A DNA stretch of 63,950 nucleotides, filler included, from Kipferlia bialata (lineage: Eukaryota), in NCBI GenBank assembly GCA_003568945.1. It is 5 parts of 5 records of this genome, joined end to end, with 100 filler letters (N's around TTAATTAATTAA, not from the genome) between each part and the next. Parts side by side here need not be neighbours in the genome. Positions count along the whole stretch, not along the records: positions 32,134 to 48,054 come from BDIP01000648.1; 4 more parts are not named here. One strand, written 5' to 3'. The notes under the pieces are model-generated. The model was not told the DNA's origin, made no database searches, and saw only the letters and a list, made by a program, of their open reading frames with translations. The translations under genes were made by a program, and so were the position numbers. Every line of letters starts with the position of its first letter. Position 1 is the first letter of the stretch. Below are positions 17,098-57,140 of this stretch, one piece after another.

Positions 17098-20000
17098 CTA
17101 CCCGGTTCCGTGGGCGGCAATGTATTCTGCAACTCTCTCCTTGATGTCTGGCCTCTCCGTGACATCCTTCATCCTGGGTGAGATACAACTCTGAATGTGC
17201 GCAGAATTATACTATTGTGCAGTTTTAATATAGGTTACCATATAGTTATGATAAGAATAACATAGCATATCACAAAGCACGCACTCAAAGGTACTCCTGG
17301 AAAAGGGGTCTGGCTGCCCCTTGGTGACAAGCCTCTGGGCAGTATCCCTAGGAAGTGAGTCGGGTATTGTCAAGTGACAGAGTACAGCATACGGAATACC
17401 TTGATACAACATGTCCCGAGGGCAGCTCAACTGGGTCCTCCATGAGTCCATAGGTGATGGGGTCAAAGAGCTCCTGGGGGTTATGGTTATAATGAGCACA
17501 TAGTGAACTGCATACAATTAATTGCATGAATGCGTACCTGAGTCCTCCATGTCATCTAGATACTAGATTATAGAAGGCCTCTATGCATGTCACTGACAAT
17601 GACTCATTGTATATACATATATACATATATATACCTCCACATATATATATACATATATACATATATATACCTCCACATCTGAGTCCTCCATGTCATCTAG
17701 GTCACTGGTGTACTGGGAGGGGCTACTCTGGCCTGGGGTGAGTATATTCATATATTCATATTGATCATAGATTCATACTTTGTATACATCTAACACAGAC
17801 ACAGACATATGTCTGACTTACTTATCAACCGCAGCAGCTCCCCAGCTGCCCTAGAGCCTATGGATGCCCTGTTGTCCTTGATGGCCTGGGGTGAGTACAT
17901 ATATAGTATATATAGGTATGTAGTATATACATATAGTATGACACGATACATATACTATATATATGTGTGTGTCTCTGATTGCCTGTATGCTACTGGCCCT
18001 GGGGTTAGTATATATACATAGTATACACAGATATGTAGTATACATATATATATATATACACACCTGGATGCTGTTGGTGCTGGACTGGATGTCAGCCAAT
18101 AGAGGCATCTCGTGTCTGGACCCCCCTGCCTGCATACCCCTCAGCACACACACCAGACTGCCACACACTATGCCCAGCATGGAGACAGCCAGCTGAATGT
18201 GGCGCTGGTTCTTACGATCTTGTAGCTATAGTCAGATAAATACACCTATGACCACCTAAGTATGTTGGATACTTGTATGAGAATAGCAATACACGCACCT
18301 GGGGTAGCTTGGCAAACAGATGATAATACAAAAGAATATGTATTGTATAAGTTGGACAGTAGGAATAATAGCAGACGCACTTGGGGTAGCTTGGCAAGTA
18401 GCACAACGAGGGCACCCCCTGCGTCTAGGGCTGCCTTGTCCCAGAGGTGGGTGGGGAGGGAGGGGAACACAGACAGGCAGCTGAAGAGTGAGGGAGGGCA
18501 CACTCGCAATAGGTGTGCTTGAAGTTAGATTGGACTCACATTGCTAGTGGGAGCGTGCGCTGCAGGGAACCGATAATGAACTCCCCCTCAATCTCCTCAA
18601 TGTCTCTCTCTATCCCCTTCACCTCTCCGTCTTCATCTGACTCGGTGTCACCGTATTGCTCCCTGGAGTAAGGCTTAGACGGGTTTGAGCATATATATTG
18701 GTTCATATATATACATAAATACATAGAGTCCCACCTGATACATATGAATTCATATATACATATATGTATAATACTCACTGTCTCACCTGAACGTGCCAGT
18801 GAGGAGGCTTACAACAGAGTCACAGTTCTGGGCCACCTAGGTTGTTAGAACAAACGAAATGTTGGTCATGGCAGGAAGATATCAGTTGGCATTTCTATAG
18901 GGCCACTCTCCGTATGAATTGCATTGGGTTCTAACCTGCCGAGACACAAGCTCAAAGAAGGACCGGAAGTTGGAAGACTTCTCTCCCCCTAGACGGCTGA
19001 GGTCGGCGAAGATACCCCTGCAGAGCTGGGTTAGAATCAAATATGACTCTATATAGAGAATAAACGGGGCATGTGGAGCAGGTGGCTGTGAGTGAGAATA
19101 CTATGAATGCTATCTTACCTCCTGGGAGAGTGCCTCACTTGTCTGTGCCACACACAATGCACACTGCACCACATTGGATATCAGGTCCATGGCCAGGGGG
19201 TGGTTGGCCGTGTCGGAGGGCTTGGTCCGACACACAAAGTCCATAGTGACCCTGGGTGAGTAAGCTTACTCCTTCCCTCACAGAGAAGACAACAGGAGAC
19301 GCTATATATATACCTTAGCACTAGCCCTGCCACTGACACAGGCAGTGGGTCCATGTCCAGGTCGATGTCCGTGTCTGTGTTGACCTCTCCACATGGCACC
19401 CAGGGCACCTCGTGCATGGCAAGCTGGGTCCATAGCAGCTGGGGTGAGTGTCTATAACACCCTAAATATAATTATAGTTACAAAAAATATATTCATTATA
19501 CTCCTCGCTATTAACCCTGTAGGTCTCATAGTAAGGCCAAGAGACTGTACTACTCTAACTATATGCTATATATGCACAAATGATATTCACCTGCTCTGTT
19601 AACAGTGAGTCCCTGCTGCGTCTGGGTTCTATAAATATCTACCAGCCTATATATACATATACACACCAACACGATATATATATATAGATATCAATACTGT
19701 ATCCAATCAGTACCTGCTGCGCCTGTCTAGGTATCATTGCACTCCCCCTGGCCAGTCTCTTGATGTCCCCATCTGCCACAGTCTCATAGTCCTCACACCG
19801 GAAGTAGGAGGATAGGACTCCAATGAGGGGGTAGACATCGCCACGCAGTGACTGGGAGTGAGGCTCTGATAGTGAATGGAATTGGGATATACAGGAGTAA
19901 ATCAACCTTGTGTGTCACTGTCTCATCGCTGTTCTCCACATCTCCTGACAGACAGAGAGTGCATAGGACTGCAAGTGCATGGCCAAGGGGTGAACCCCGG

Positions 20001-23000
20001 CTGTTTGTCGTAAACAGCTCGTCGTGAGAGGCAGTGCTACGGTGCAGACACAGCTAAGGTTAGAGAGAAAGGCGAAGCCCAATATCAATGGGGGGTGGGG
20101 GGCAAGCCAGTACTTGGGTAGATTAATATCTCCTACCTGCAGCAGTAGCAGCACCATGGAGTGTGGCAGCAGTCTGTGTGGGTAGTTGGCCACAAACACC
20201 TCGCCCTGTCTGCACGTGGTGAGGGCAGCTGAGTACAGGCGGAACAGGCTGAGCAGGAAGCGACGGATATCGCCAAACACTGAGGGTGAGACATAATCAA
20301 ACACTGCTATTTCATCACTCATCCCTATGAGAAAGTGTCACGAGCTATCTTCTCTTGCCTGGTAGTTTCATCATTGTGGCCGTATGCTTGATATATGCCA
20401 GCAGCAAATCGCGTCTCTTCGTAAGCTGTATCATCCGAGGGTCCTTCTTGGGGTCGGTGCCACCTTGCTTGCACATGTTGGCTACCTGAGGCTTAGAAAA
20501 CAATGTGTGCAAGAACAGAATAATGACGGGTTCCAGTAAATACTATAAGCCAACAGACTCACCATTTTCATCAGTCCCTCCTTGTCTCGTGCCTCTCTGG
20601 GGTCAGAGGGGTAAAATAGTGGATAATATACAATAGAATAATATATTGAAAGGTGTCAAGCAATGCGGTCAGAAGGGAAAGGAGGTGAGAACGAATGAAC
20701 ACATATATGTCTTATGAGGTATCAAGCAACATACCTCTCAGCAGCTGTAATCCTAGTGGCCGAGGGTCCGAGGGAGTGGTGAAGAGAGAGAACGATGCTC
20801 AGTACGAGACGTGTGGCCTAGGGTGTGAGGACAGAAAGAAAGACAATCAAGAATAGAATTGTGTAAAAGACTGGCTACCAAGTACAAGGTGATATATATA
20901 CATATAGCTATACTATACCTTTGACTCCGGGTCTGCCTTGGGCTGGAAGGGCGGGAATCTGGCGGCATTGTTAGAGGGGAGGTCCTCTGTTGTGTCACCT
21001 GGGATGAGAGTAGGCAACACTGATCCACAGGTGGTGAGTCTCTACTACTATATGACTGTATGAATAAGTATCCATTTACCTGTTGTGGTGACCATGTGGT
21101 TAAGCTTGGCCAGGTATGTTGGGTTGAGCATCTGTCTTAAGTCAACCTGCCGGGGGTCGCAGGACCTGTGGTAGGGGTGGTAAGAAAGGGGGGAGTGGAG
21201 TGCTATTATTATATATACCTCAGAGCCTGGCACAACCCGAGAGAGACGCATGCCTTAGAGACTGGGTCTATGTAGTCTCCATCGAAGGGGTCACTCTCCT
21301 GAGGATAAGAGGAAGGGGTAGAGAGAGAGGAAAGAAGTCCAAAGGAGGATAAGAATGAAAGTCTGCTGATTGGACTCATAGAGTATATACATCTGAATTC
21401 GACTCCGAGGAATACTGTGAACAGTCTACCTCTGTGACCCAGGATGTCTTGTCACGGCAGGTGTCAGAGAGCACCCTGTCCAGACACTGCAGCAGAGAGG
21501 CTTGGCAGGTGGGGGCAAGGGTGGCTGAAATGAGAGAGAGGGTGATACACATGTACTATTAGCATGCTTTGGTACCTATCAGTCTGGTGATTGGTCCATC
21601 CACCACTGTCTCCTTGTGTGACACCAGGTGGGGACTGGGGGGCTCATCGGATGCCATAGCCTCTGGAGGTTAGACAACAGCGCCAGCACACTTCGCTCAG
21701 TATACTCTATTTGATACACCCTCTACTATACACTATCTCATCACCTGAGTATGCCCTCCTGACCCTGTCTGTTGCACAGAGGGGGGCAGTGAAGCCTGGG
21801 GTCAGAAACAACACACACACTAATCACAGATACTAGTTATCCTGATATGCTACATACCTAGTGCAAACATGTTTGGCATCCCAGCTCCCTCACTCTCCCT
21901 CTCCCTGTCTTGCAGGTCCACCACAGGTGCACAGTGCTGGGTGAGTGCCCTCTCCACTAGAGTCTGTCCCTGTGCACCCATAGACAGTACGTGCTGGCAC
22001 AGGACAGCACAGAAGGAAACAACCCTGAGGATTAGAATACATACGTATTGTGGTCCAGTACTCACTAATGGAATAATAGTAGTATTATAGTAAGCACAGG
22101 ACAGCGGAAAAGGACACAACCCTGTTTATTAGGTGCCAAGTCACTCAAATATTGAGAAATATACCACATTTGTATACAGTAGTGATGTACTACCTGCCCA
22201 GCTTGTTGGACATCTTGATGGAGAGGGGGCCAGCACTGGAGGTCACCTATGGTTAGAGAGAAATGACTCTCTACCAATATGGAAGACAGATGTGTAGTAT
22301 GCACACAAAATTTCTTCTGGTACTTACCTTAGCAGACACTGTGACACAGAGGTTGAGCATGCTCATGATGCAGTACTGGATGTGACCCGCAGATACTGCG
22401 GCCATGTCTCTCTGCAAAGAGAGAGTGTGTGAGACGAATCTGCCAACAAATGCATCACCCTGGGGTCCCATGCTCAGACACACCTGGGTAAGAGAGAGAC
22501 TCTGACAGAGAGACAGACACTCAGGGAAGATATAGAGAGAGCACAAGAGAGAGAGGAGGGGGTCTGTTATACATACTGAGTTTCATACCCAAAGCAAGGA
22601 GAGAGAGAGAGGTATGACATATATATATATACTGATATGCATACCCCAAGCAAGGCATCGAGGCACTTGGCTGTGGTTGGACATGCATCCTCCCCCTTGA
22701 CAGACACTGTCAGCATGGCTGGGCAGTGCATGATGGAGGAGATGAAGGCAGTCACTGTGTCTGCGGCATCTGTGTACTCCCTCTCCCTGGCCCTCAGGTG
22801 GGTGCTGACAAGGCGGTGCATGACAGCACCTGGGGTGAGGGGGAGAAGGGTGTTGTAAGTGTTAAAGAGTGCGGGGGGAGGGGTGGAACTGGTAGGGGTG
22901 GTGCATGACGCCTGGGATGAGAAGAGGGTGACAAATGTGAGAGAAGAGTTACTGTATATAATACAATATAGTAAGCGTACTCTGAAGAGACTGGCTAACA

Positions 23001-28338: not shown

Positions 28339-30254
28339 CTATGGCTGTGCACAGAGCTCGACACATCTGCCAAGACATGCATCTTCACACTGGTCCACAC
28401 ACAGACACCCCACACCCTGGCACTCACACATCAGAGGGCAGAGGGAGAGACACACCGACTCACAGTCAGAGAGACAGTGGAAGGGAGCTGCAGAGCCAAT
28501 GGGTGGATCAACCAGGTTACCGTCGTCGTCTACTGCACAGTAGGTACCACACTCCTCTACCTCTACACAGGGGTCACACTCGATGATGTCGTCGTCGTCG
28601 GGTGGGATGGGGGTGGTGCAGTCGTAGCCTGGGTGAGGTATATTGACGACAGGTTGATAATAGACAGAGACACTCTGTCAGAGAGAGAGAACAGATACTC
28701 GAAGGGAGTTTGTTGCAGTCGTAGCCTGGGGTAGTGATTGGGTGGTTATGGAGTGAGAATACAACTGGGAGAGAGAGTTACCTAGTGTGCACAGTTGTAG
28801 GTGAAGTCTTTTAGAGGTAGTCTAAAGAGACACAGCAATGAGAGTGTTGGAATACACATTGACACAGAGATACCCAGTGTGCCGCAGTTGTAGTTGAAGT
28901 CATGGGGAGGGAGGTCACAGTCGATGTCAGCGTTGCACTGGACAGACAGAGTCTGAGGGTGAGAGTAGTGTCTACTCATTTATAATTGTCGTATACTAAG
29001 AGTGTGTGAATTACTAATCCCTAACGATGGTACCGTTAATGACTGACTGTACCTGAAGGAACTCCAGCTCTAGGAACTCCACAGGTACAGAGCCGGAGAG
29101 AAGGTTGGACACAACGTCAAAGACCTGGTGTGAATGTATGTGAATATATGTGATGTGCTAACTGAGTGCAACAGACCGAGCAAAAGCGATAAACGGGACT
29201 ATGTGAAGTAGGGTGGTGTGAGAACTACTATCAACTAAAGAGACCGTACCCGTATGTACTCCATCTGGTCGACACAGGTGGGTATCTCCCCAGAGAGAAG
29301 GTTGTTGCCCAGGTTTAGACTCTGGTGTGAGATACTACCATATGACGATGACATACATACTACCTGCATGTGTCTCCACTGGACTTACTATGTAGTCATA
29401 CACCACTGCCTATATATGTTTATAGATTACAGTTTCTATTACTATACCACCTGCATGTGTCTCCACTGGCATATGCAGTCATCGATGGGGCCAGACAGGC
29501 CAGACTTGTTCATGGACAGAGACTGATATGAGTAATCAATAGAGTGGTTGTCTACACGCATTGATAAGAAACCAATACCTTCAGCTCTGTGGCCCCACAC
29601 AGTGCTGTAGGGAATCCCTCGATGTCGTTGTCATTGAGTGTGACAGTCTGGGGGTTAGGTTGGTGACTGTACCTATGTGGCAATGGGCAGTTGAGGAATT
29701 CTGTTGAATGAATACCCACAAATGTTTGATGGACATTTGACATACCTGTAGAGAGGTGAGACACGATATGGTGTCTGGGATTGTGCCGTACATGCCAAAG
29801 TCTGGGGTGAGAAACACAGTGATCTAGTATACATTGATAGACTGCCACTCACCAAATAGTAGTCCCAATATGTTGAGAGACCATCACTCACCTTGCATGT
29901 TGAGCACCTGGACAAACCCTCTCTTGCACTGCACACCAGTCCAGTCGCAGATGTCAACGTCACTCAGCCTGTGGTCAGTATCACTATCTATACTACCAGT
30001 ATGTGTGATACATACACTGCCGACAAGAGGAGCGCCAGCACAACGGCATTCAGCGCTGAGAGTACTTAGTGTGGTGCTATGAAACAGAATGACATCAATA
30101 CACACAAGGCAGTAGATAGTACATACCAGTTTGTGCTCTTTGTCCACATGTCCCCATCTGTGGCATAGTAGAGCTCAGTGAGTACATCTCTCTCAGAGGG
30201 ACATTGTGCAAGGGCAATGCCGACCAGGCAACCAATCAGTGCAAGTAGGAGCAT
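28339..30254 (-). CDS. CWP: Giardia-type cyst wall protein homolog: signal peptide, LRR cap, about 5 LRRs, Cys-rich domain, extra Cys-rich tail
   Basis: Spliced product MLLLALIGCLVGIALAQCPSERDVLTELYYATDGDMWTKSTNWLSDVDICDWTGVQC...GTIPDTISCLTSLQ...GLSGPIDDCICQWRHMQ...LSGEIPTCVDQMEYI...QCNADIDC...CDPCVEVEECGTYC. This follows the architecture and Cys spacing of Giardia CWP1-3 as I recall them. Confidence 0.85.
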
Positions 30255-32133: not shown

Positions 32134-32141
32134 CCCCCTCT

Positions 32142-32176
<35 letters not shown>

Positions 32177-32231
32177 ACATCATACGTCATATTCCGTCTC
32201 CCCATCCTCCCCCCCTTCATCTCACCATCAG

Positions 32232-33436
32232 AAGGGCGACCGTGAGATTGTCCTGATCCTGGGCTCTGACCGTCTGTCCCTGAGGGTGCTGGCTAGGGTG
32301 GTTGAACTGGATGCACACAAGCATACCTCTAGCCCCTCCACACTCTTAGCTAAGTGCACTGTGGTCCCCCTCTTCACCCTGACCGACCCTGCCACTGGGT
32401 CTCCCCTGCCCTCGCACAACCACCACGGACACTCCCTGCAGAGTGTGCTGCTGGATACATGCCCCCCCAAGAGATATGTCTGGGAGGACACGGAGGAGAT
32501 AGCCTCTTTGGTCACAGACGCAGGTATAACATTGTCTATCTATGTGTCTAGTGTGTCGTATCATATCTGACCCTAGGCAGCGTAGACCTTGTTCTCTTTG
32601 CCCCCGAGGTCGATGGCCATGCAGGGGTCATGGGGGTCAGGGACACACAGCCTGGGCCGGTCATGGTGCCATACCAGCACAGACTGAGGTACTCATCATC
32701 TATTGGGTCCTGAATTGTCTGTCTACATACTACTTAGTCTTCTAGGGTCTTCGTGTCACCCGTTCGTGTAGCTGTGGAAACAGCTTTACGTGTCAGTCTA
32801 CTGTTTCTTAGTCTTTTATAGTCTTCTTGTCACCCATTGTGATACCCGTGTAGAATGGAAACTGCTTCCTCATATGTCATATCTTCCAACAGACATCTCT
32901 GTCGATGTGTCTGCCAAGTATCTCTGTCTGTCTCTCTCTCTCTCTCTCCTCACCCTTAGGATGTCTGACGACTGTGGTGGCTTCGAGCACACTCCCTCCG
33001 AGGCATATGCCGTTGGTATGGGCTGCCTATCTACAGCCAAGAAGATCATAGTGGTGGCCGTCAGTGAGCTGTATGGAGAGGCCTTGGTCAAGGTATAGGG
33101 AATATTTATATAATCATTGTTACATACCCCCATACTCTCGCTCTCTAATTGTCTAACCCCCTTAGACCCTCGACCCTCCCCACCCCTCTGCCGACCCCAC
33201 CTCGCTCTCTCTCCTGGTGTCCCAGAAGACCCTCTCCCTCTATGTTGATCCCTTTGCTGTTCTTGCTCTGCCCTGTATAGCAACCCCATGGCTGCATGCC
33301 ACATCTACTCTATGGACACAGTCGCCAAGGTATAGTCACTGTGTACTAATCTAATGGGATACTCTGGACAGTCGCCAAAGGTACTGATGTATTGAGGCAC
33401 TATTTCCAGGCTTGTCAAGAGTACCGTCGTACACAT

Positions 33437-33470
<34 letters not shown>

Positions 33471-36015
33471 GTATGTATATATTAATATATACATTATTAT
33501 TAGTATTAGTATTAATATGTGTATATATATACCAATGCCAGGCTAGTCAAGAGTGCCGTGGTGTGGACTGCCCAGCAGACAGGCAAGGCCATACCCACAC
33601 TCACTAGCAAGGTATGGAGATGTATTGATTCACATATATATAGTATTATATATGTGTATATACTAGTACCCTCCCTCACCACCCAGGACTTCCTCCAAAG
33701 GGGTCTAGGGGGACTCATCGCCAAGAGGGGCCTCAGTGCACTGCTCAGGTTTAGTAACACTATTCACTACTCGCTTGTCACACATTATCACAGTATGTCA
33801 TTCCCTTACCCTTTAGTACTGTGCAGCGTGACATTGCAGACAGGGTGAGGTTTGCCTGTCCCATCGTGCCCCTCTCTGCATCAGACCCCCACCCCACAGT
33901 GGTGGTCTTCTCCCCACACCCAGGCAAGTAGTGTGTTCTATATGCTAGTGTTTTGTTCTCTCCACACCCAGGTAGATCAGCAGTGTGTTGTATACGCTCT
34001 GTATGCTATATTCATACCAATTCTGACCTCCGTATATGGACATTCGCTCACCCCCAGATGACGACGTGGTGTCCATGGGAGGCACACTATCCAACCTCCA
34101 GGTATGGAACCATACATGACATGAATTATATATATTATTGAATGAGTGCTGTAACCCATGGAGTATCGTACAGTGTACTGATACCCAGGCCCATGGGTGC
34201 GATGTGCACGTGGCATATATGGTATCTGGCTCCAATGCCGTCAGCACAGACAGTGTCCTGGCACACTCTAGGTATATATATATATATATATATATATACG
34301 ACTAGTCATTGTTACTCTTAGGTTGGTTTAGTAGCTACAGATTTAGTAACAAGTTGGTTTAGACACCTGACAACAAATTTTGATACTTGACACTGACCCT
34401 TAGATTTGCCGAGACCCTTGCCGATCTGAACCATATTACAATACATTGCACTTCCTGTCACAGATATACTCTACTCTTACTATTAGATTTGCCGAGACCC
34501 TTGCTGATCTGAACCCTGCCCTGAAGGGGGTGTCTGAGTGGATCAAGGATAACATGGATAGTAAGGAGATAGGTACGTTATGCGTCATGATATGTCACTC
34601 TCTATTGTGTACGCCCTAACTATACATATATATATATATGTATGTGTGTGTATTATACACATACCCTCACCCTCTAGGCATCCAGCTGAAGGGTGCTGTG
34701 CGTCGGACCGAGGCCACAGCAGCTGTGGAAGGGATGGGTGTACCCCAGGACCACGTACACTTCCTGGACCTGCCATTCTACACGTACGGGTCTCTCTCTC
34801 TCTCCCCCCTATGTACATTTCTCTCCCCTTACCCCTTATCTCATCCTCTAGTACCAAGAGTGCCCCCGAGGCCCCCGAGAACGTCGACCGTGTCTCCAAG
34901 CTCCTCAACGCCTTGCAGCCCAGCCACCTCTTCCTGGCAGCTGATCTCTGTGATCCCCATGGCACTCATGGTGCATGTTACGAGGCACTGAAGGCGGCTC
35001 TCTCCACCTTCTCTCTCTCCCCCCCTCTGCCCCCCTGCAAGTGCAGTCTCTGTACCCAGGGCATGGCACCCTCTGCGTCTCAGCTGGTGCCTCTGCTGGG
35101 GGCACTGTCACCACCCGACCAGACACACACACAGCCAGAGCACCCGAGGTATGGGTGCATTCGGATATTGATATATCTACTTCGTGGATACAGTAACTAT
35201 ATGTGGAAACAGTAACTATACTCTTATATATCCTCACTCCCCAGACTGTGGCTCTACAGAGGTGCCTGGCAGGACTACCCGGCTGATCAGGTATGTATGT
35301 GTATATTCCACACACACTACCAGGGCAGTACGTATTATATATGCATGTGTACAATATACCCTGAAACCTAGGCCGATGTGATCCTGGCCCTGACTGGTGA
35401 GCAGCTGACCCAGAAGCTGGTGGCCATCCAGAGGCACTTCTCACAGGGGGCAGGTACTGTATCTATAAGTATATCGTATATATACGTAACCTTATGCTCC
35501 ACGTCATCCTCTACGTGCCATCTTTAAGGGCACAGTTGATAATGTATTTATATGTATACAAACATGTTTGTGTGTATGCACAATGTATACATGTCTCACT
35601 CCCCAGGTGCCATGTTCAAGGGCACAGACTCCAGAGAGTTCTGGGAGAGAGCCAGGGACAGAAACAAGGTGCTTAGCTATGATGCTAATTACTGCATATA
35701 GGCTAATTCTAGTGGTACTGATAGTGATACTGACCCCAGGCCCTAGCCAATGAGCTTGCCCAACTGCAACTAGTGATGCTAATATAGTATCAATAGTACT
35801 TATAGCATATACCTCTATTGATACTGACCCCAGGCCCTAGCCGATGAGCTTGCTTAGCTGGCAAATAGCCTCTACTATACCACCTAGTAGTATTACCGTG
35901 TAACTTCATATACATATTGTACTGACCCCAGGCCCTAGCCGATGAGCTTGCCCAGCTGGGCCAGGGGACCTATGTGGCAGCAGAGGCCTTTACCACTGGG
36001 TTCGAGCTTCCATAG
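32232..36015 (+). CDS. nagB: Glucosamine-6-phosphate deaminase-like domain fused to PIG-L-family deacetylase (long bacterial NagB type), 5'-truncated
   Basis: Spliced motifs KSAVVWTAQQTGKAIPTLTSKDF, VFSPHPDDDVVSMGGTL, VHVAYMVSGSNAV, KGAVRRTEA, HFLDLPFY, DLCDPHGTHGAC, LWLYRGAWQ, FKGTDSREFWERARDRN and YVAAEAF match the long Bacteroidetes-type NagB. Confidence 0.88.
33924..34057 (+). other. GC-AG intron interrupting the HPDD metal-binding motif
   Basis: CACCCAG|gcaagt...ctcacccccag|ATGACGAC restores FSPHP-DDDV; read-through gives GGC AAG TAG. Confidence 0.85.
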
Positions 36016-36645: not shown

Positions 36646-37282
36646 TCATGCCCCTAGGTAGTGGCTGAATAGAAGGCCGATGCCACTGGCCAGGAGGGAC
36701 CCGGCCTGGTTCGACAGCCCTATCCACCTGGGGGTGAGGGGGATAGACTATATTGAATACAAAGTATCTGTAAATAGAATGCACACCTCTTGACAGTCTT
36801 GTCCTGGTCCACCTATCTCTATACATATATATGTATGGATACATTAATANNNNNNNNNNNNNNNNNNNNNNNNNNNNNNNNNNNNNTGTATGGATACATT
36901 AATAGTATATATACCTCTTGATAGTCTTGTCCTGGTCCACCCCTATCTGCCCTGACAGCAGGGAGTGCCTCCTCCGATAGGCAGGGCGGGTCAGCAGGGT
37001 GTACACAATGGTGGCCACGTAGCCTTGGGATGAGAGGGAGAGAGGCAGTGGGAGTAGGGGAGAGAGAGAGGGAGATGATCTACGGATGCCACGCCTCTCG
37101 AGCGTAGTATGATGCACACAGAACGCACACAGTACCTGCGACGAATGCCTGCCAGGCCACCTCGACATACAGGCCCATGGGGATGATGTACACATCGGAG
37201 ACAGCAAAGTAGGCAAAGTAGGTGAGGAGACCGGTCTGGAAGATGTTGAGGACTAGAGGGCTGCCCCTAGTGGTTAGATAGA

Positions 37283-37329
<47 letters not shown>

Positions 37330-38772
37330 AAAGAAGGTTACCGTACTTGTCGATGATGGAGCCCAGCCTGCCCAGGAAGTTGAACACTGTGTACACTGTG
37401 TTGAGGACAGACATGACCTGGGACTGGTCATCCCCGTACCTAGGGGGTTAGCATATGTGTATGTATAGAGAGAGAGAGACAGAGGTAGGGGGGACAACCT
37501 GTCCGTGGCGTATAATGTATATGTATATATGTATGACTAACATAGAATATATATGTGTGTATATGTATAGACACACACCTGTCCGTGGCGTATGGCAGCA
37601 GTGAGGGTGTGAGTGTGTATATGAGCAGACTGGTCCACAGCATGTGCACGCAGGGTGTGACATAGGCAGAGAGGGGCGGTGGGGGTATCCGGTTCTGGGT
37701 CTGGGACCCGGCCCAGGGCTCCATGCCACCACTGCCGCTGCCTGGGGTAAGTATAGGTATGGGTATATACACATAGAGAGAGAGAGAGAGGTGCAGGGCT
37801 CCATACCACCACTGCCACTGCCTAGAGGTGAGGAGAGATATGTATATACATCATGTATGATATAGATATAGAGAGAGAGGGATAAGGGTTCAGGGCTCCA
37901 TGCCTGGGGGGGAGGTGAGGTGGAGGCATAGGTATATGTGGGTATACAGTATCAATTTGCATCATAAATACCTCCCAGCAGCAGCCCCTCGGTCTCCTCA
38001 TAGCTGGGGCTGGACCTGTCGGCACCGGCCTGGGTATGAGTGTATATAGTAGTATATGTTTATCGAATTTTGGTACTATATACCTTGTAAGCCTTCTGAC
38101 TGGCCTCTGTGTTGAGCACCACCACAGCAATGACACTCACAGCCTGCATGGGGAGGACAAGCCACCAGAACAGACTCACTGAGATCAGAGAGAAAGAGAG
38201 AGAGAGAGAGAGAGAATGCGTCCTCTCCCTATGGTAATGTATGTAGAGAGGCAGCTTACCTTGTGGGTCCTCCAGGCCTATCTGCACATTGCCCAGGAGG
38301 GCTGCCACCAATACACTATATATATACTATATCTATATACATATATATATCTACCTTGTGGGTCCTCCAGGCCTATCTGCACATTGCCTAGCAGTGCAGT
38401 GACCATACCAGACACAGTGAGACCGGTGGAGGTGATGGAGGTGTAGTACGGGTCACTGGGATGAGGAGAGCGAAGGGGTTCTTTCTTACTTACTTATAGA
38501 TAGCTGCCTATATATATCAATTGTGAATATCAGATGTAATGTGACCGGTGGAGGTGATGGAGGTGTAGTAGGGGTCACTGACAGTGAGAGATAGCAGCAT
38601 TCACAAAGTGGGACAGAGAGAGTGATATGTTGATAAATTGAGTACCTGTTTGCGACGTATGAGAATGTGAACACAATTGCTGTGCACCCTACTATACCAG
38701 CCATGAAGGAAGCAAGGAGGACCATGACTGATACGTCATCTACAGTCACTGGGGTTAGACATATAGATATGT

Positions 38773-38803
<31 letters not shown>

Positions 38804-40257
38804 AGACATGAGAGAGGCGAGGAGGACCATGACTGATACGTTGTCAACAGTCACTGGGGTTGGAGGAGAGAGAGAGATGAGTAGAAAGATGTGCGTGAAT
38901 ATGGTATACTCACCATCCCATGCTGTGGCCAGTCCCACATCAGTATATATATATATATTGCCCACATATATGTATACTATTACACATACTGATGCTTATT
39001 ATCAAATATTACTATTAAACACTATCAGTTAGTCACTCACCATCCCATGCTGTAGCCAGTCCCACACACACCAGACACCCTATGCTGAACAGGAGGAGGA
39101 GGACAGTACCATCCCTGGAGTGAGATAAGACAATAGAGATAGGTATACATATATATACATATGTTGAGAGAGAAAGAGAGATAACATGAAGAGAGGGACA
39201 GTGTCATCCCTTGGGGAGTGAGGTATATTGATATTGGGATAATATATATGTGATATACCTGGGGGGGGGGGGAAGAGAGAGAGAAAGAGAAGGAGGGAGA
39301 GAAAGAGAGAGAGAAAGAGTAAATGGAAAACTACATGGGTGAGCGGAATGCATGCTTACATAATTAGAGCACTCGGAGAAACAACCAAGAGCTGATGGTA
39401 ATATAAACACACACTCTGGTCCAAAGCTTGGGTAGTATATAGAATAGTATACACTCACCGCATCCCCCCTGTCTTCCTCCCCCTCATCACGACCATCAGG
39501 AAGGGCATATACTCATATATATATATATATACTATATAGAACACATAATATAGTAGAGAGCGTCTTCATACTCACCTCATCCCCCCTGTCTTCCTCCCCC
39601 TCATCACGACCATCAGGAAGGGGTATTCAATTATGCAATATATTCATCACAGTCATACTATATATACAAATATGGATATGTAGTACATATTATGTACCTC
39701 ATCCCCCCTGTCTTCCGCCCCCTCATCACGACCATCAGGAAGGGGTATTCAAATATGCAATATATATATCACAGTCATACTATATATACAAATATGGATA
39801 TGTACCTCATCCCTCCTGTCTTCCTCCCCCTCATCACGACCATCAGGAAGGGCAGGATGTTGGCCAGATTGTAGCACACAGTGATGTGGGAGGAGATGGC
39901 ATCGCCCTCGGGCAGGGTCTGGGGGTATTAGAACACACTGATACATATAGAGAGAGAGAGAGAAAAAGAGAGAGGGGGAGAGAGGGTGAAAGGGAGAGGG
40001 AGTGGGAGGAGATGGAATCACATTATTATCACTTGAGCAGGGCCTGGGGGTATCAGCACACTGAGAGACACACCTATTTACATTTCAAGTCTGCTCATAT
40101 AGAACCATTGATTGAGGACATCCCAAGTGTAGTACAACCTGCATCATGTGTATCCACATACCTTGATGAAGAACGGGGCCTCACTCCAGAGTGCATTGAT
40201 CAGGGTGAATGGACCAAACCCCAGGCACAGGTGCAATACAGTACCCAGGAACCGAGA

Positions 40258-40260
<3 letters not shown>
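36646..40260 (-). CDS. SLC52: SLC52 (RFVT/GPR172)-family riboflavin transporter-like membrane protein
   Basis: LHLCLGFGPFTLINALWSEAPFFIK|TLPEGDAISSHITVCYNLANILP, IVGCTAIVFTFSY, TGLTVSGMVTALLGNVQ, LTPSLLPYA and WIGLSNQAGSLLAS parallel SLC52 motifs (INGLWVELP..LPEG, DCTSSV, GLSG, QxGSLLG). Confidence 0.78.
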
Positions 40261-48211: not shown

Positions 48212-51200
48212 AGACATCGGCTGGGGGTGAGGGGTACATAGGGAGCATACACCTCACTGATAGATGGACACTACAAGATGTGCTACAGTATAGAGTACAT
48301 GTACCTGGGAGAGTGTGTTAGCCATGTCCCTCTCCTTCTCCCCCTCCTCCATCAGATATGCCTCAGTCAGATACCCAAGGGCACCGTCAAACAGAGCCAG
48401 GGCAAGGGTCAGCGTGTCGCCCTCACACCTGGGGTCAGTTAGCATTCATACATGACACTATCTCTACAGGTATACCCAGCGCACAGAATACATATGATCG
48501 CTTCACTTAGCATTGCCCACTGGCTATATATCCATATTAACCCACTTATACCACTATACTATACCTGGTAATTTCCAGCGAGTGTGTCTCTGCCCCATGT
48601 CTCCATCGACTCATATATATACTTTCATGTATATATATACTAACACATATATCTGTACCTAGCGATGTCGACCGAGTGTGGCTCTGCCCCCTGCCTTCTC
48701 AGGGTGGCATCCTCCTCAGACTCAGACGCCTTGCTGGTCTTCTTCTTGGACTGGGGGTGGGGATAACGCAATACACATTGATATTTATACCAATATATAT
48801 GACTCATCATGTTGAACTAGGTGTGAAACGATAGTGATTTACAAAAGAATACATAACTACTCTTATACAATAAACATACTGGACATGGTAGGGGAAGATG
48901 GATGCAGAATGTGAACACGATTAAGTAGATACTTAAACACAATGATACGTCGTGTTAAGACACACCTTAGATGACTCTCCGCCGGTGACGACCTCGGTAC
49001 CAATGTCCTGAATATGAGAATACTCAAATACATACAATAACAATTAACAATTGAAAGGATGTCCCAAACCACAATGTAACGATTTATCTATATACCGTAG
49101 TATCACTGCATCCATACCGGCTGGTGGTGTCTGAGCAGTGTGAACAGAGCATTGTATATGGCGCCAAATGGAGTGGCATATGCCCTCAACTGTCTGGTGG
49201 TGACAGAGGCAATGGTGGCCATGATGTCCTGGAGGGTAAGAAGAGAAAGACAAGAAGAGTAGTAAGACAATTATCTATTTACACTAATACATATACTAAC
49301 TATAATGTCAAGTGCATAAGGTCCGGGAATACCCACCTTGTGCTCTCTGGCCACACACGCCTTGACCTTTCTGGTATCCAGGGACATGAGGAAGATGTAG
49401 AACTCCCTGGGGTGAGTCTAAATCAAGTAGAGATCATTTATGATAGTGCATGCCGATTCAATGACAAAAGGTGAGTACCTCTACAATACTAAATACTGTA
49501 TACCTAGCCTTTCCGCCCATTGTCTGTCCCCTGTCTGCCAGTATCTGCCACAGGAGGGGGACGGCCTTGAGACCAGACCTGGGGTGAGTATACACGAAAG
49601 GGGGGACCTCGTTGTGGGACGGAGTATGAATATGGATATATACATAATGTAAAGAACGCATGTACAAAAATATATATACACATTCGTGTATATGCCCTAC
49701 CTGTGTGATATGGACCCGTGTGGCACACTGCCACAGACAGAGGATAGGAGGTACCACAGACCGTCCTAGGGGGTGAGGTATATATATACTACACTGATAT
49801 CCTAGTGGATATTGAGGTAAAGTAAACAAAAAGTAAATACTGCTGTATACTATAGTATATGTACATATTCCGGTGTACCTGCTGCTGGTGGGTGACTCCA
49901 TCGAGCTGCCAACCGTCTGCACCGGCACCTAGGGGTCAGATACAAGAGCATAGGAATAGGTAAAGGAATCGAGATATGATGGCAATAGTATTGAAGAGAC
50001 ATATCATACCTGTCTCTCCGTATGTCATGAGAAGGGCCCCGGTCAGAACATGGACCAGTCTGGGGTGAGTAGAGTAACGGGTCATACCAGCACATACTAG
50101 ATTTCATCATCATTACTATACACCTGTATACACTAACTATATACACACCTGTCTGCCCTGTCCTTGTCATGGCACACCAGTGCCCTGCCCAGCATATCAG
50201 GGGGGAGGGCAGACCCGGCAATGACCTTGGATGAGACATATACAGAGAACATGGTCCATCCCAATACTAATTGAGATAGAACAATATATAGAACAAAAAC
50301 AGTGTGAACTTGATAAAAATAACCATCACACTGTACCTGCAGCACCATGGCAAGTGCCCCCCTGTCAAACCCGTCCTGCTCACAGTCTGTGCTCACTATC
50401 AGTCGGTACAGCACGGTGTGGGCGCTCTCCAGGGCAGCACTGACGTTAGAATACACAAACACCATATAAACAACAATATAACGTCATGAATGTACAAGAC
50501 AGAGTGCACACACTCAAGGGCAAAGCTGCAAACACATTTAGACACCATTCACGTACATGTCGTCCTGCCCCCTCTGTGCCTCATGTTCAGCCACATTGGC
50601 AGCAACGGGGACAATACTCTGGGGTGAGAACATGTATACATACAATGGAACTATGAACTCATACAAGAGTATTACAATATTACAATTTTTGATGGATAGA
50701 GTAGTGACCATACCTGCAGGAATGCGTCGACCAGTCCCACTGCATACGGGGTCTCATACCCACTGCCCAGGGTGTTGTCATACCTAATGGGTGAGAGATA
50801 TGTATGAAACATATNNNNNNNNNNNNNNNNNNNNNNNNNNNNNNNNNNNNNNNNNNNNNNNNNNNNNATTACTGTATATAAGCATAATATGCATAGCCAC
50901 TGCCCAGGGTGTTGTCATACCTGGGGTGAGACATATCCATGACACACACATATATACCATACTATATATCACACTGTATATATATAACCTGGGTGAGAAG
51001 GGGGGGGGGGGAATAAGATGTTCCGAGTATATGACTCTCATATATATATATATAATTGTACATGAGATACTAATACCATACCCTGCGTGTGCCTCTGGGA
51101 CTGAGAATGACAGGGCCAACTCGGTGGCAGAGGACAGGCCCTGGGGGTGAGAAAGGCAGAATGGAAAAATCCCAAATTAATATATATTATATGAATATTT

Positions 51201-54068
51201 CATCCCAGTTGGGTGGCAGAGGACAGGCCCTGGGGGTGAGGGGAGGAATAATGGCAATGGTTTGTAACAATGGTCTGTATCAACACACAATATACAATAC
51301 CTGGATGGCTGTCCTGCGCACTGCCACCTTCTCATCTTGGACTCGGTGGGAGAGCACCTCGCAGATGCTGGGGGTTAGAAAGACATAGTGGACATGTCTT
51401 GATACAAAAACTATGCTTGGGTTAAGATTGGTATTGATAAAAATATCACAGATATGCTGGAAAATCTGGAAAACGTCCAAGATGAATGGGGATACACCTA
51501 GTAAATGTCCCTAACTACAAGCATACCTGACCATCTCTGGGTCCTGGTACTTGAGGACCATCTCTTCTAGGTCCTGGATGGCAACGCCTGAGGGTGAGGC
51601 CGAAGACATACCAGCAGAACGAGAAGAGTCATATATAAACAATGGTCACATATGCGAATAGACCATACATCACCCCATACCTATCTCATCCTCTGCGACC
51701 TGTCTCTGTGCCACTGTCTCCCAGTGGCCATCCCGCAGCACACCCATGCTCTTGCCAACGGCCTGGTGATAAGACATGCATTATATATATGTGTATAGAC
51801 GTATACAGACGTGTATATATATATACATATACATGCCATGCTCTTGCCGACGGCCTGGGGGATAAGTATGTGTATTAGCAATATACATATTCAATACGTC
51901 ACGAATACATTCATCATATAATGAATAGTATAGTACTTCTTAAATGTCAATGTGTATATATCCTACCTCAGACAGTGTGTGTGTGCGTGTCAGGATGCTG
52001 GTGGCCAGAGCACAGACCAGTCTATGGTGAGAGGATGTAACTGAAGTTCAATATAGCGGAGCGTTCATGTATACATGCATATCGACTGACCTAACACCTG
52101 CCCGACGAAGAGCAACGGCCTTAGCAGATAGAGCGTGGCCAAGACCTGATGTGAGGGTATAAGTGACGCATGATATTTTGTATCGTTCTACTATCATCAG
52201 ATCAACACACTATGTAGTAATGCAAATATATATATATACCTGGTATGTCCTTCATGACCAACCCCTGCTGCACCATGTAGTCTGTGGATNNNNCCTGGTA
52301 TGTCCTTCATGACCAACCCCTGCTGCACCATGTAGTCTGTGGATATATATGGATACACCGTAAACAAAGATATATATATCGATGTAAACTATAATTAGTA
52401 TACCTGGAATATCCTTCATGACCAACCCCTGCTGCACCATGTACTCTGTAGATATATATGGATACACTATAAATCTATATCGATGTACTATCAATATACC
52501 TGGTATGTCGATCATGACCAGTCCCTGCTGCACCATGTAGTCTGTGGATAGAGACACATATATATATGTATATATATATATATATCATTAGTATACCTGG
52601 AATATCCTTCATCAATAGTCCCTGCTGCACCATGTAGTCTGTGGCTAGAGATAGGGCTATGAGGGCGGTGCTGGAGACAGTGATGTCAGTCTCACTGGCG
52701 TTAGATACACTCATCAGACATACGCACATACATATACATGAGAGAGTGTCATTGAGATCAAAGAGAGGGTAAGACACATACGTGTGTACAATATAGAGAT
52801 GTGTGTGAGAGAGTGTGTGTGTGTGTGTGTGTGATACTATACCTGGTCATGCTGACGGCTGTGTCAAAGAGTGCCTTGATGTCATTCCTCTCTCTCTCCT
52901 TCTCTGCCTCTCCCTCTGACAGAGACTCGCAGTGCTGGTTGAGCAGGAACCCAATCACATCTGGGGGGTTAGTATTGGAAACTGTGCAAGCTGTCAGAGA
53001 CAGAGTATATGTCTATGCGATTCTTTCTACTGTAATCACACATACATATGAATTACCATATGAGAAGATTACCAGCCTGCCGTTGCCGATCTGACCTCAT
53101 TGCTCCCCATATTCTTTGCATATATATACTCATTAGTAACCATATACGACAAACAAACATATACATACACATATATAATGATAACCCTACCTGCCGTGGC
53201 CGCCCTGACCTCCTTGCTCCTCTGTCTGGACAGCAGCCTCAGCAGCTTGACAGCCTGGGGTGGGTGTTAAACATACAGCATCAATGAACACTTTGAGAAG
53301 GCCGTAATGGAAACACACAATTGTTATCACGATTCAGGAATATGTGGTTGTGATCCACATGGCAATGTTTGACATTGAATTCAGGATTGTTATACCTTGT
53401 TTGGAATTGGATCCCCCCTGCCCCTGAGTGTGTCGATGAGACTGCCCACTGTGACAGACAGGGCCATGCGCTCATCCTTCTTGCGGGTGGCCTAGGTGTC
53501 AGTACATATAGTATACATATATATACCATGAATATCCTACATGGGATATACATATCATATGCATAGAGTGTGGCATACCTTGACCATGCCGTGTGCCGCT
53601 ATGGTCAAGAGCTCATCAAAGTGGACACCCTTGCGAGTGCCCTCAGTGTCCTTCCTGGGGATTAAGGGTGTAGACAGAGAGAGAGAAGAAGAGAAGAAAG
53701 AAATGCCGATTACAACACTGGACCTTGAGTATACGTATAGGTACAATGATACCTCCCATCACAGGATCTGTTCTCCTTCTCTGCCTTCTCCATCAGAATG
53801 TCAGTCAGATAGGCGCCACCGTGGAGAGACAGCACAGTGCCTGGGGTGAGACAGTAGTAGCAAGACTAATAGAGAGAGAGAGAGAGAAGAATCCAATAGT
53901 ACTGGACAGTGCCAAAGGTGAGAGGAAGAGAGAGAGTCAAACCCCGTCATAGAAAGAGATGCAACCTACTCACACAATTATACATACGAACTATGCAAAA
54001 ATACAGGTATATATGTACCCACCTAGCAGTGTCATAGCCAACAGGTACACACAATCATGAAACATAAG

Positions 54069-54101
<33 letters not shown>

Positions 54102-55166
54102 ATGTAATAATGTGTTCACTCACAAGTCCATTACCCACCTAGCAGAGTCATTGCATTGTTGTGGTGCTGGTGGTAGTACTCATCGGCTGGGGGTGAGGGG
54201 TAGTTGCAATACATATATATATATATATATTCACATATACATATATGAATAGTACTCATACCAAGAGGTAGTACTCATGTACCTAGCGTTGCCAGTCCCA
54301 GCTGTACCACGGCATCTACCATGGACTCCCTGGACATCCTGGGGGTGGGATACACCACCACGTATACTGACATATAACTATACATATACATGTATCATAC
54401 GAAACCACAAATATCTCACACGGCACAATCATGGACTCTAAACCTGTTAAGGTGAGGCAAATGACACATATACAGGAATTCAAGGTAGAATGTAAAGTTC
54501 CAGTCACTGAACCGCATACGATCACTCACTTTGGTGTCTTGTGGTCTGTGAGGGATGCCAGGGCCATGGCTGGAGGGTCAGACAGAGTAAGAGAGACAGT
54601 GAGAGTAAATACTATTGAGGTAGAGTATACACTGACTGTACCTGCTCCACCAACTACCAGTTCAGAGAGTGTGGCCATGCCCTCTGTCCTCTCTCCCCAA
54701 GTATATATATAGAGTATATATATGAATATATACACAGATAAAGCACCTGCTCCACCAACCACCAGTTCACAGAGTGTGGCCATGCCCTCTGTCCTCTCTC
54801 CCTCCCTCATGCCCAGGGCCACAAAGGAGAGAGAGAGAGTGACGTGGCCCAGGGTGCGGTGGTACTCAGTGTCAAGGGCAGCCCGCTCGGCCTTGCCAGT
54901 GGACCTATGATAAGAGAATGAGAGAGAGGAGCCGATGTCAAGGGCAGAATGATTGGCTTCGCTCCTTGACATATGGTTAGGGCTCTTCATACTTAGTTAA
55001 ATACCTCTATATATAGAGAGAGATAACACATGGTGTACCTTCTTCTGACTGGCGCCTCCTCCTCCTCCTCCTCAGGTGCTGTACCCTTCTTGGCCTTCGT
55101 GGTGGTGGTCTGGGACAGAGACCCGGAGATGAAGTTGGAGATGGCAGCTGGGGGTGAGACACTAGG

Positions 55167-55198
<32 letters not shown>

Positions 55199-57140
55199 GG
55201 TAGATAGGGATACATATAAGTATAGATATATACATATATAGAAGGCCGAAGATAATGTGGAGATGGCAGCCGGGGGTTAGGATATGAATGATATACAAAC
55301 AACTATATATATACATATCTATATGGGTAGATATATGAATAGACATATACATGTAGAGAGCCAGAGATGAAGGGGGAGATGGCAGCTGGGGGTGATACAT
55401 TAGGGTATGGTTATATGAACCATTATACATTGGTAAATGAGAAATATGAATACACATATATAGAGATCCAGAGATGGAATTGGGGACTCCAGTCGGAGAG
55501 TGAGATCTACTACGTAAAACATGTAGTTCGTGTGTATGAAGCATAGCTGTGGCATCGGATGTCCTATACAACTATGCCTGGGGAATACATAACATATGAA
55601 TTAATATATGTGAGTTTACATACCTATGACTGGAGTGATGAGGATGCGCTCTGGGGGCATGAGACCCACAAGGGCACACAGACACACGCCTGGTGTTGGG
55701 GATAGATAGGTGTATATACAGAATACATACCAACATGCATATGATTGGTCAGAAGTGGGATACAAATCAATATAATATATATGGGCATGAGACCCACAAG
55801 GGCACACAGACACACGCCTGGTATTAGGGATATTCTCCATGGAATAGAATAGTAAATGTTATATAATTATGTGTATTGGGTATCAATATGGATTGATTGC
55901 ATAGACTAATATATATACACACATCAATATACCTGCCGCCGAGTACCCCATAGCCACGGTGTATTTATACATATCTCTAGATATATGAATATATATACAT
56001 ATACATGATAGTACCTGCCCCCGAGTACCCCATGGCCACTGTATTCATGTATATATATCCCAATAGACACATAGATATACACATATAACACCTGCCCCCG
56101 AGTACCCATATGGCCACTGCGTATACACATATATAGATCTCTCTCTCTATATATATATATATATACATATATGTACCTGCCCCTGAATAGCCCATGGCCA
56201 CTGCGTATGCCAGGCCTGCACTCAGCCTCATCTGACTCAGGGTGGACAGGGAGAGAGAGACATCATCGTCATACTCCTCACTCTCACTCTCTCCCTCCCT
56301 CTCCATGGCAACATCCCCAGAGGCACACTCGGAAGGAACATCTCCCTCTCCCTCTCCCTCTGCATCTCCACTCATTGTAGCATCTCCCTCTGCCTCTCCC
56401 TGGGTCTCTGCCGCAGCTTCCTCCTCCTCCTCCTCTGGCTCACTCTGAGAGTGAGAGGAGAATGATACCAATATACCACACATCTTCTCTGTGTACACAG
56501 GTACTATATACACCCACCTCGTATGTCGTCCTGTAGTCCAGTATGTAAAGCAAGTATATATAGATATATAATAGTATAGACAAACATACTCTATATTACC
56601 TCATAGGTCGTCCTGCAGTCCAGTATGTAAAGCATAAGAATGTCAATACATATACATAATAGTATGGTTATTTACTCTCTCTCCCACCTCGTATGTTGTC
56701 CTGCAATCCAGTATGTTAAGTGTATGGATATATATATATATATATTTATATAGGCATACACACTCCCTCCCACCTCGTATGTAGTCCTGCAGTCCAGTGT
56801 GTTAAGTGTATGCATATATATATATATCTATTTATATAGGCATACACACTCTCTCCCACCTCGTATGTTGTCCTGCAGTCCAGTGTGTTGAGCATAAGAA
56901 TGTCAATACATATACATAATAGTATGGTTATTTACACTCTCTCCCACCTCGTATGTTGTCCTGCAGTCCAGTATGTTAAGTGTATGGATATATATACATA
57001 TACATAAATGATATGGTTATTAGTATTGTGGTAGTATCTATACTCTCTCCCACCTCGTATGTTGTCCTGCAGTCCAGTGTGTTGAGCCTTGGGATGAGCT
57101 CTCCCAGCATGGGCTCAAAGTCAACATCCTCCAGCCAGTC
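48155..57140 (-). CDS. Large HEAT-repeat protein, possibly the cohesin regulator PDS5; truncated at both ends
   Basis: More than 25 short helical exons. GVCLCALVGLMPPE resembles PDS5 ACCLADIxRIYAPE, and ICEVLSHRVQDEKVAVRRTAIQGL resembles ERxxDKxxxVRxxAxxGL. A condensin HEAT subunit is not excluded. Confidence 0.5.
52238..52645 (-). repeat. Array of exon-end echoes encoding (D/E)YMVQQGL(V/L)M(K/I)DIP
   Basis: Five copies of cctggtatgtccttcatgaccaacccctgctgcaccatgtagtctgtgg-like sequence, including the real exon. Confidence 0.9.
56513..57090 (-). repeat. Array of seven copies of an exon 3' end plus donor (about 86-nt period)
   Basis: cccacctcgtatgttgtcctgcagtccagt near 56513, 56597, 56683, 56769, 56855, 56943 and 57049; only the last continues into the full exon (LNTLDCRTTYE|gt). 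Confidence 0.92.

What the first reader, a model, noticed from the sequence alone, without database searches (positions are those of the whole stretch)
33592..33700. Apparent intron gain by tandem duplication: an echo has become the branch point and acceptor
Seen: the last 20 nt of the 75-nt intron (33667-33686, TACCCTCCCTCACCACCCAG) match the last 20 nt of the upstream exon (33592-33611, TACCCACACTCACTAGCAAG) at 15/20 and keep the codon sense (PSLTTQ vs PTLTSK). Splicing restores LT-SK-DF, collinear with bacterial LT-xx-DY. Inference: duplicated coding sequence supplied CTCAC..CAG, as in the classic duplication model of intron gain, in a gene of probable bacterial and hence intronless origin.
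Basis: partly seen in the sequence, partly recalled or inferred. Interest (0 to 1): 0.78.

Follow-up and report, generated by a model that had tools for sequence, protein, structure and literature searches.

The report
Intron ending in copied exon end
In a sugar-metabolism gene of an intron-rich protist, one 75-base intron ends in a 15-of-20 match to the end of the exon before it; it likely arose when that exon end was copied behind a stretch of AT-rich filler, by a process that has left similar copies in about four of ten introns examined nearby, but chance is not excluded and the gain itself is untested.

Summary
The 15/20 match is real. My 15-intron model, which uses junction 33611/33687, equals a deposited protein at 609 of 609 residues. 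The match is the best of 113 curated introns. Chance per intron is about 2-7 in 10,000, or 0.002-0.045 expected in the set; with a loose register it is 0.21. The classic AG|GT model fails: the next exon starts GA, and the intron's 5' part does not resemble it (7/29). The gene is not a recent transfer: it groups with Dysnectes and Carpediemonas proteins. In this window 43 of 113 introns hold a direct copy of a flanking exon end or start (null 50 of 6,720). Donor-side copies sit behind a TA-rich spacer unlike ordinary intron starts, and this intron's first 55 bases look like such a spacer. Best reading: insertion with a direct repeat, as in Daphnia neointrons, created the intron (0.45). Rivals: chance 0.35, acceptor swap in an old intron 0.15. 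No RNA reads or orthologous intron positions were available. The scan noted similar echoes before, in sea-urchin DNA.

The parts
32139..36015 (+). Host gene, 16 exons from the end of an assembly gap: long-form glucosamine-6-phosphate deaminase-like protein with a PIG-L-type deacetylase domain; 5' end lost in the gap
   Evidence: 609/609 with P0001; PRK02122, E 1e-102, 344 bits, under the 384 cut-off
33542..33611 (+). Exon 5 (70 nt), ending in the codons for Leu-Thr-Ser-Lys
33592..33611 (+). Exon end proposed as the source of the copy; holds CTCAC at -12 and ends AAG
33612..33686 (+). Intron 5: 75 nt, phase 0, GT-AG, in frame and free of stop codons
33612..33666 (+). Donor (GTATG, the commonest in the set, 23 of 113) and TA-rich spacer; GC 0.20 in bases 7-46
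33667..33686 (+). 20-nt echo of the exon end (15/20)
33675..33686 (+). Predicted branch point CTCAC (commonest pentamer, 38 of 112 other introns) close to the CAG acceptor
   Evidence: branch-point use is inferred
33687..33748 (+). Exon 6, starting with GAC (conserved Asp), not GT
33471..33533 (+). 3' part of intron 4 that resembles the spacer of intron 5; inconclusive
   Evidence: rank 1 of 112, not significant after correction for TA-richness
33388..33430 (+). Internal echo of the intron 4 acceptor and start of exon 5
   Evidence: (D6)
33956..33972 (+). Internal echo of the end of exon 7, followed by GT although the modelled donor is GC
   Evidence: (D15)
34383..34432 (+). Internal echo of the intron 9 acceptor and start of exon 10
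   Evidence: (D3)
35504..35535 (+). Internal echo of the start of exon 15
   Evidence: (D10)
35722..35860 (+). Two internal echoes of the last acceptor and start of exon 16
   Evidence: (D2)

Best explanation
Intron 5 likely arose in one local repair or slippage event in a once continuous exon: about 20 bases of coding sequence were likely copied in direct orientation with about 55 bases of TA-rich filler between the copies, the filler would have supplied the donor, and the copied Leu-Thr-x-Lys codons would have supplied branch point and acceptor. Shown: the match, its rarity, the junction copies in 43 of 113 introns, and the spacer-like composition. Inferred: that the copy is real, that exons 5 and 6 were joined before, and that the differences then moved toward the acceptor consensus (three of the five, at -7, -5 and -3, put C where it is frequent). 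Exon 6 begins with G, so a copy of 21 bases followed by filler starting with T would give the GT. At existing junctions the same event only lengthens the intron and leaves an internal echo.
For: Best of 113 pairs; 1.6e-4 to 7e-4 per intron under four nulls. Echoes in 43 of 113 introns against 50 of 6,720 mismatched trials; direct, not inverted (4 of 226), and rare for exon interiors (2 of 108); 22 of 23 junction-anchored donor echoes are followed by GT. Echo length 15-50 nt and spacer 32-151 nt (one of 298) bracket the 20 and 55 nt seen here. Donor spacers are more AT-rich (median GC 0.26, n=22) than starts of introns without echo (0.375, n=67, p=3e-6) and than the sequence behind the echo's own GT (0.37, p=0.001). 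The focal value is 0.20; 9 of 22 spacers but 5 of 67 plain introns are at or under 0.225, likelihood ratio about 3.5-5. Spacers are no more alike to each other than to reversed controls, so not one mobile element. Daphnia neointrons average 78 bp and 78% AT, and 33 exon-end direct repeats of 4-12 bp were found among the 90 (PMC4202315, passages).
Against: Loose-register null expects 0.21 such cases in 113, and 124,912 introns (PMC5874029) would give about 20-50 by chance at my rates, so one picked case proves little. Seven or eight of the 15 matches are consensus bases; TACCC lies near the 3' end of 10 of 113 introns; another acceptor reaches 13/20 with this exon end. Identity of 75% is below all 23 donor echoes (76-100%, mean 92%). 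It is the only 3'-terminal echo among 113. The composition test was prompted by seeing the low GC rank. No orthologous gene structure and no RNA reads were seen. Metamonads lack canonical NHEJ (PMC8516963, passages), so the Daphnia pathway cannot be carried over as it stands.
Confidence: 0.45

Rival explanations
1. Chance convergence: conserved Leu-Thr and Lys codons happen to spell the short branch-point/acceptor consensus, and an ordinary C-rich acceptor matches the rest by luck.
For: L254 and T255 are conserved for protein reasons; CTC is 131 of 470 Leu codons and AAG 117 of 120 Lys codons; 97 of 113 exons end in AG. The Ser-Pro-His-Pro exon end at 33923 reaches 13/20 with its own acceptor in this way. 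Loose null 0.21; the finding was selected from very many introns.
Against: 0 of 112 other acceptors reach 15/20 with this exon end; nulls that keep the consensus give 2e-4 to 7e-4; spacer-like composition; this exon end ranks only 22 of 113 in general acceptor-likeness.
Confidence: 0.35
2. Acceptor swap in an old intron: an ordinary donor echo formed at an existing junction, the copy happened to work as an acceptor, and the old distal part was deleted. A real copy, but no intron gain.
For: 23 of 113 introns have the starting structure, spacer + echo + old intron; the focal intron equals its first half.
Against: Needs a base-exact loss of the old part, since exon 6 follows the copy directly with no indel against 119 homologs.
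Confidence: 0.15
3. Classic tandem duplication of an exonic AGGT segment (Rogers model).
For: The 3' end matches the upstream exon; the length is a multiple of three without a stop (4 of 113 introns are so).
Against: Exon 6 starts GA; the intron start matches exon 6 at 7/29; the 5' local score is 4; the 55 nt are TA-rich, not exon-like.
Confidence: 0.03

Closest known systems
Daphnia pulex neointrons formed at staggered breaks (PMC4202315, passages read)
   Same: Short (mean 78 bp), AT-rich (78%) intron with a direct repeat of the adjacent exon's last bases at the far end, and no identifiable source for the body.
   Different: Repeats there are 4-12 bp and gains are proven by intron-less alleles. 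Here the repeat is 20 nt at 75%, holds the predicted branch point, no intron-less allele is known, and the lineage lacks canonical NHEJ. About 93% of Daphnia neointrons have in-frame stops; this one has none.
Rogers-type tandem genomic duplication; vertebrate ATP2A1 intron (PMC3265369, passages; PMC3443670, passages)
   Same: Copied coding sequence would supply branch point and acceptor, with the protein unchanged.
   Different: No AGGT site; the donor does not come from the copied exon; the 5' half is unlike the downstream exon.
Potato RdRp intron gained by a duplication across an intron-exon boundary (PMC4974935, parts 1-2 of 5 read)
   Same: Local duplication near a junction with one splice signal activated from exon sequence.
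   Different: There the donor is exonic, the acceptor is inherited and the gain is shown by phylogeny and RNA reads. Here the acceptor is exonic, and a source in intron 4 was tested and inconclusive.
Long-form nagB of Bacteroidota and protists (PMC1484493, passages; NCBIfam PRK02122)
   Same: Same family, 30-36% identity to the top hits, collinear at the junction.
   Different: The query is divergent (branch 1.25), scores under the family cut-off, and groups with fornicate proteins.

Membership tests
Rogers-type tandem duplication intron | AG|GT site in the exon sequence | tested here: not met
   Exon 5 ends AG, exon 6 starts GA; that Asp is kept in 117 of 119 homologs
Rogers-type tandem duplication intron | Intron 3' end resembles the upstream exon end | tested here: met
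   15/20, best of 113
Rogers-type tandem duplication intron | Intron 5' end resembles the downstream exon start | tested here: not met
   7/29; local score 4
Insertion with flanking direct repeat (Daphnia-type neointron) | Direct repeat of the exon's last bases at the far end of the intron | tested here: inconclusive
   p 2e-4 to 7e-4 in register, but 0.21 expected in 113 under the loose null
Insertion with flanking direct repeat (Daphnia-type neointron) | AT-rich body without an identifiable source | tested here: met
   Core GC 0.236, second lowest of 110; no unique source in the window; rest of genome not held
Insertion with flanking direct repeat (Daphnia-type neointron) | Intron absent from alleles or relatives | not testable with these tools
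   Only proteins of relatives were found; the metagenome scan gave no relative's gene
Any functional spliceosomal intron | Removed from the mRNA | tested here: inconclusive
   Deposited model and homolog alignment agree; no RNA reads seen
Introner or transposon-derived intron | Family of similar introns | tested here: not met
   22 spacers, pairwise mean score 11.9 against 11.8 for reversed controls; window only
Recent bacterial transfer | Protein nests among bacteria, apart from related eukaryotes | tested here: not met
   Groups with Dysnectes and Carpediemonas, SH-aLRT 98, 67 rows, no bootstrap

The most novel reading that the evidence does not exclude
This lineage has a genome-wide mutational process that copies 15-50 bases at splice junctions behind fresh TA-rich filler. 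It doubles existing introns and, inside exons, makes new ones whose branch point and acceptor come from codons. Much of the organism's intron load would then be home-made and recent rather than an ancestral state of fornicates.
Probability: 0.2. Interest if true: 0.8.

Novelty: new variant of a known kind. Interest (0 to 1): 0.5.

Why it matters
Few gained introns have an identified source, so a copy that supplies the branch point would be a useful case. The larger point is the setting: 43 of 113 introns carry junction copies with an asymmetric TA-rich spacer, which makes a gain mechanism countable in a genome with about 125,000 introns. The genome paper for the species so named reads that intron richness as ancestral while noting independent gain as possible. 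Echo introns also mean that a perfect-looking inner splice site is skipped in my models and, for this gene, in the deposited model.

Tried and rejected
Intron 4's 3' part as source of the spacer: rank 1-6 of 112 by setting, residual p 0.008-0.12, but 0.09-0.70 after removing shared TA-richness; left open, not used as support. Stop-free 3n length as a sign of youth: 4 of 113, dropped because about 93% of Daphnia neointrons carry stops. Other junctions: of the in-frame donor/acceptor pairs listed, all others drop or add residues against the homologs; retention would insert 25 residues. Self-training of my gene finder degraded, so I curated iteration 0-1 output by hand. Pfam on six single exons gave nothing useful. 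Metagenome scan returned 80 loci; those inspected were uninterrupted, bacterial-type genes. The whole genome, RNA runs and the protein atlas were not available, so genome-wide counts and splicing stay open. A note of mine called the intron's GC the lowest of 110; one search shows it is second.

Full report
Observation. The two 20-mers match at 15 positions in register and the match ends there. Splice signals read by eye gave a 15-intron open frame identical over 609 of 609 residues to deposited protein P0001, whose source label names Kipferlia. That model is a prediction, not reads. In 119 homologs the region aligns without a gap at the junction, so removal of exactly these 75 nt is the best reading; the other in-frame junctions drop or add residues.

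Is it chance? I curated 113 introns in six open-frame models between 17 and 57 kb. Only the focal gene is checked against a deposited protein; genes at 0-17 kb and 57.5-64 kb were left out. Acceptors are short and C-rich with a CTNAY motif mostly 10-12 nt from the end, like the fused signals described for diplomonads (PMC6679479, passages). The focal pair is the best of 113. Mismatched pairs reach 15/20 in 2 of 12,656 and the anchored score in 5 of 12,656. Simulated acceptors give 1.6-1.9e-4 and 4-7e-4. Expected cases among 113 run from 0.002 to 0.045. Allowing register shifts raises this to 0.21. So such matches are not common, but a genome of 124,912 introns (PMC5874029, passages and methods section) would hold tens by chance.

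The classic model fails. It needs an AGGT segment and likeness at both ends (PMC3265369 and PMC3443670, passages). Exon 6 starts with GAC, and the intron's start matches it at 7 of 29.

The gene is not a recent import. It is a long-form glucosamine-6-phosphate deaminase-like protein. Named relatives include Dysnectes, Carpediemonas, Barthelona, Eukaryota sp. TZLM3-RCL, Lenisia, Anaeramoeba and heteroloboseans. In a quick tree of 67 chosen rows the query groups with Dysnectes, Carpediemonas and unnamed P0121, P0131, P0141 (SH-aLRT 98), next to Barthelona and TZLM3-RCL (90); Anaeramoeba (P0130) falls outside, the query is a long branch of unusual composition, and the root is a midpoint. The long form was already known from several protist groups (PMC1484493, passages). 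An old bacterial origin remains possible but does not date this intron. Intron density of the gene, 7.8 per kb of coding sequence, is like its neighbours', 6.9-11.7.

The setting. 43 of 113 introns hold a copy of the last or first 50 nt of a flanking exon at score 12 or more, against 50 of 6,720 mismatched trials; these introns are about twice as long (median 209 against 94 nt). Of 23 junction-anchored donor echoes 22 are followed by GT; of 21 acceptor echoes 20 are preceded by AG; mean identity is 91-92% on the exon side and falls near background within about 6-12 nt on the intron side; inverted copies (4 of 226) and exon-interior copies (2 of 108) are at background. Some flanks do stay similar (6 of 23 donor flanks at p 0.05 or less), so part are plain tandem repeats. 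The spacer between real donor and echo is much more TA-rich than plain intron starts and than the sequence behind the echo's GT. I infer that the old intron lies behind the echo and the spacer is new filler; later microsatellite growth is the alternative. No such asymmetry was seen on the acceptor side (p 0.3-0.6).

The focal intron in that light. It has the form spacer (55 nt) + echo (20 nt) with nothing behind it. Both lengths lie within the echo ranges, and its GC of 0.20 fits spacers better than plain introns by about 3.5-5 to 1. If the copy is real, the simplest history is the same event in a continuous exon, surviving because the copied codons spell a branch point and AG (inferred). This resembles Daphnia neointrons more than the Rogers model. 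Canonical NHEJ is reported absent in metamonads, so microhomology-mediated end joining or template switching is my inference for the agent. Against: 75% identity is below all 23 donor echoes, it is the only such case at the 3' end, and a proposed source in intron 4 did not survive correction. Three other introns have terminal likeness to their flanks (see noticed items); two 5' cases score 11 or more where 0.02 are expected, and two of the three rank third and fourth lowest in GC of 110, the focal one second (seen after the fact).

Literature. Searches listed no paper on junction echoes in this organism, and the genome paper's main text has no occurrence of 'duplicat'; I did not open supplements, and subscription papers are not searched. 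Rogers 1989, Li 2009 and Gao and Lynch 2009 were seen only as cited by the papers read. Earlier scan notes report similar echoes in sea-urchin genes and call them a known neutral scar; I did not test them.

Verdict. Observation confirmed; interpretation partly supported. Gain by insertion with a direct repeat 0.45, chance 0.35, acceptor swap 0.15, classic model 0.03. Alone the intron is a modest, unproven case; the window-wide echo pattern is what makes it worth a genome-wide count. Interest 0.5.

Noticed in passing
window 17000-57100, both strands; also visible by eye at 1-6000: 43 of 113 curated introns contain direct copies of their own exon end plus GT, or AG plus exon start, some in 3-6 copies (39420-39840, 52240-52630, 56510-57070). 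Donor-side spacers are markedly TA-rich. This looks more important than the single intron I was given.
   Followed up: partly
window 47605-47539, minus strand: 67-nt, not AT-rich intron at an AG|GT site with likeness to both flanking exons (scores 7 + 11; 0.027 expected among 113); a better candidate for the classic model, but weak on a whole-intron template (rank 4) and in an unverified gene model.
   Followed up: partly
window 41441-41374, minus strand: 68-nt intron with an exact 10-nt direct repeat across both boundaries (0.02 expected); its 3' half is a 6-nt tandem repeat that spells the branch point.
   Followed up: partly
window 54282-54187, minus strand: 96-nt AT-rich intron whose bases 5-16 equal 12 nt at the start of the next exon: mirror image of the focal case.
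   Followed up: partly
window 33924-34057: GC-AG intron in the deposited model, although an echo 48 nt inside offers a GT donor; a second GC donor is modelled at 20358 (minus).
   Followed up: no
window 34272-34486 and 35669-35931: The open frame needs the most distal acceptor although inner copies have an equal or better branch-point motif; when both echo types occur in one intron the donor echo came first in the cases listed.
   Followed up: no
window 32139-33165: The N-terminal deaminase-like half of the protein is very divergent (P0001 lists only PF02585 while homologs also list PF01182); P0126, P0131, P0137, P0139 and P0141 lack that half in alignment A1, by truncation or loss.
   Followed up: no
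window 17290-22911, 28339-30254, 36646-40260, 48305-57140 (all minus): Neighbouring models look by eye like a U-box protein, a leucine-rich-repeat protein, a membrane transporter and a HEAT-repeat protein; labels are recalled, not from a call.
   Followed up: no
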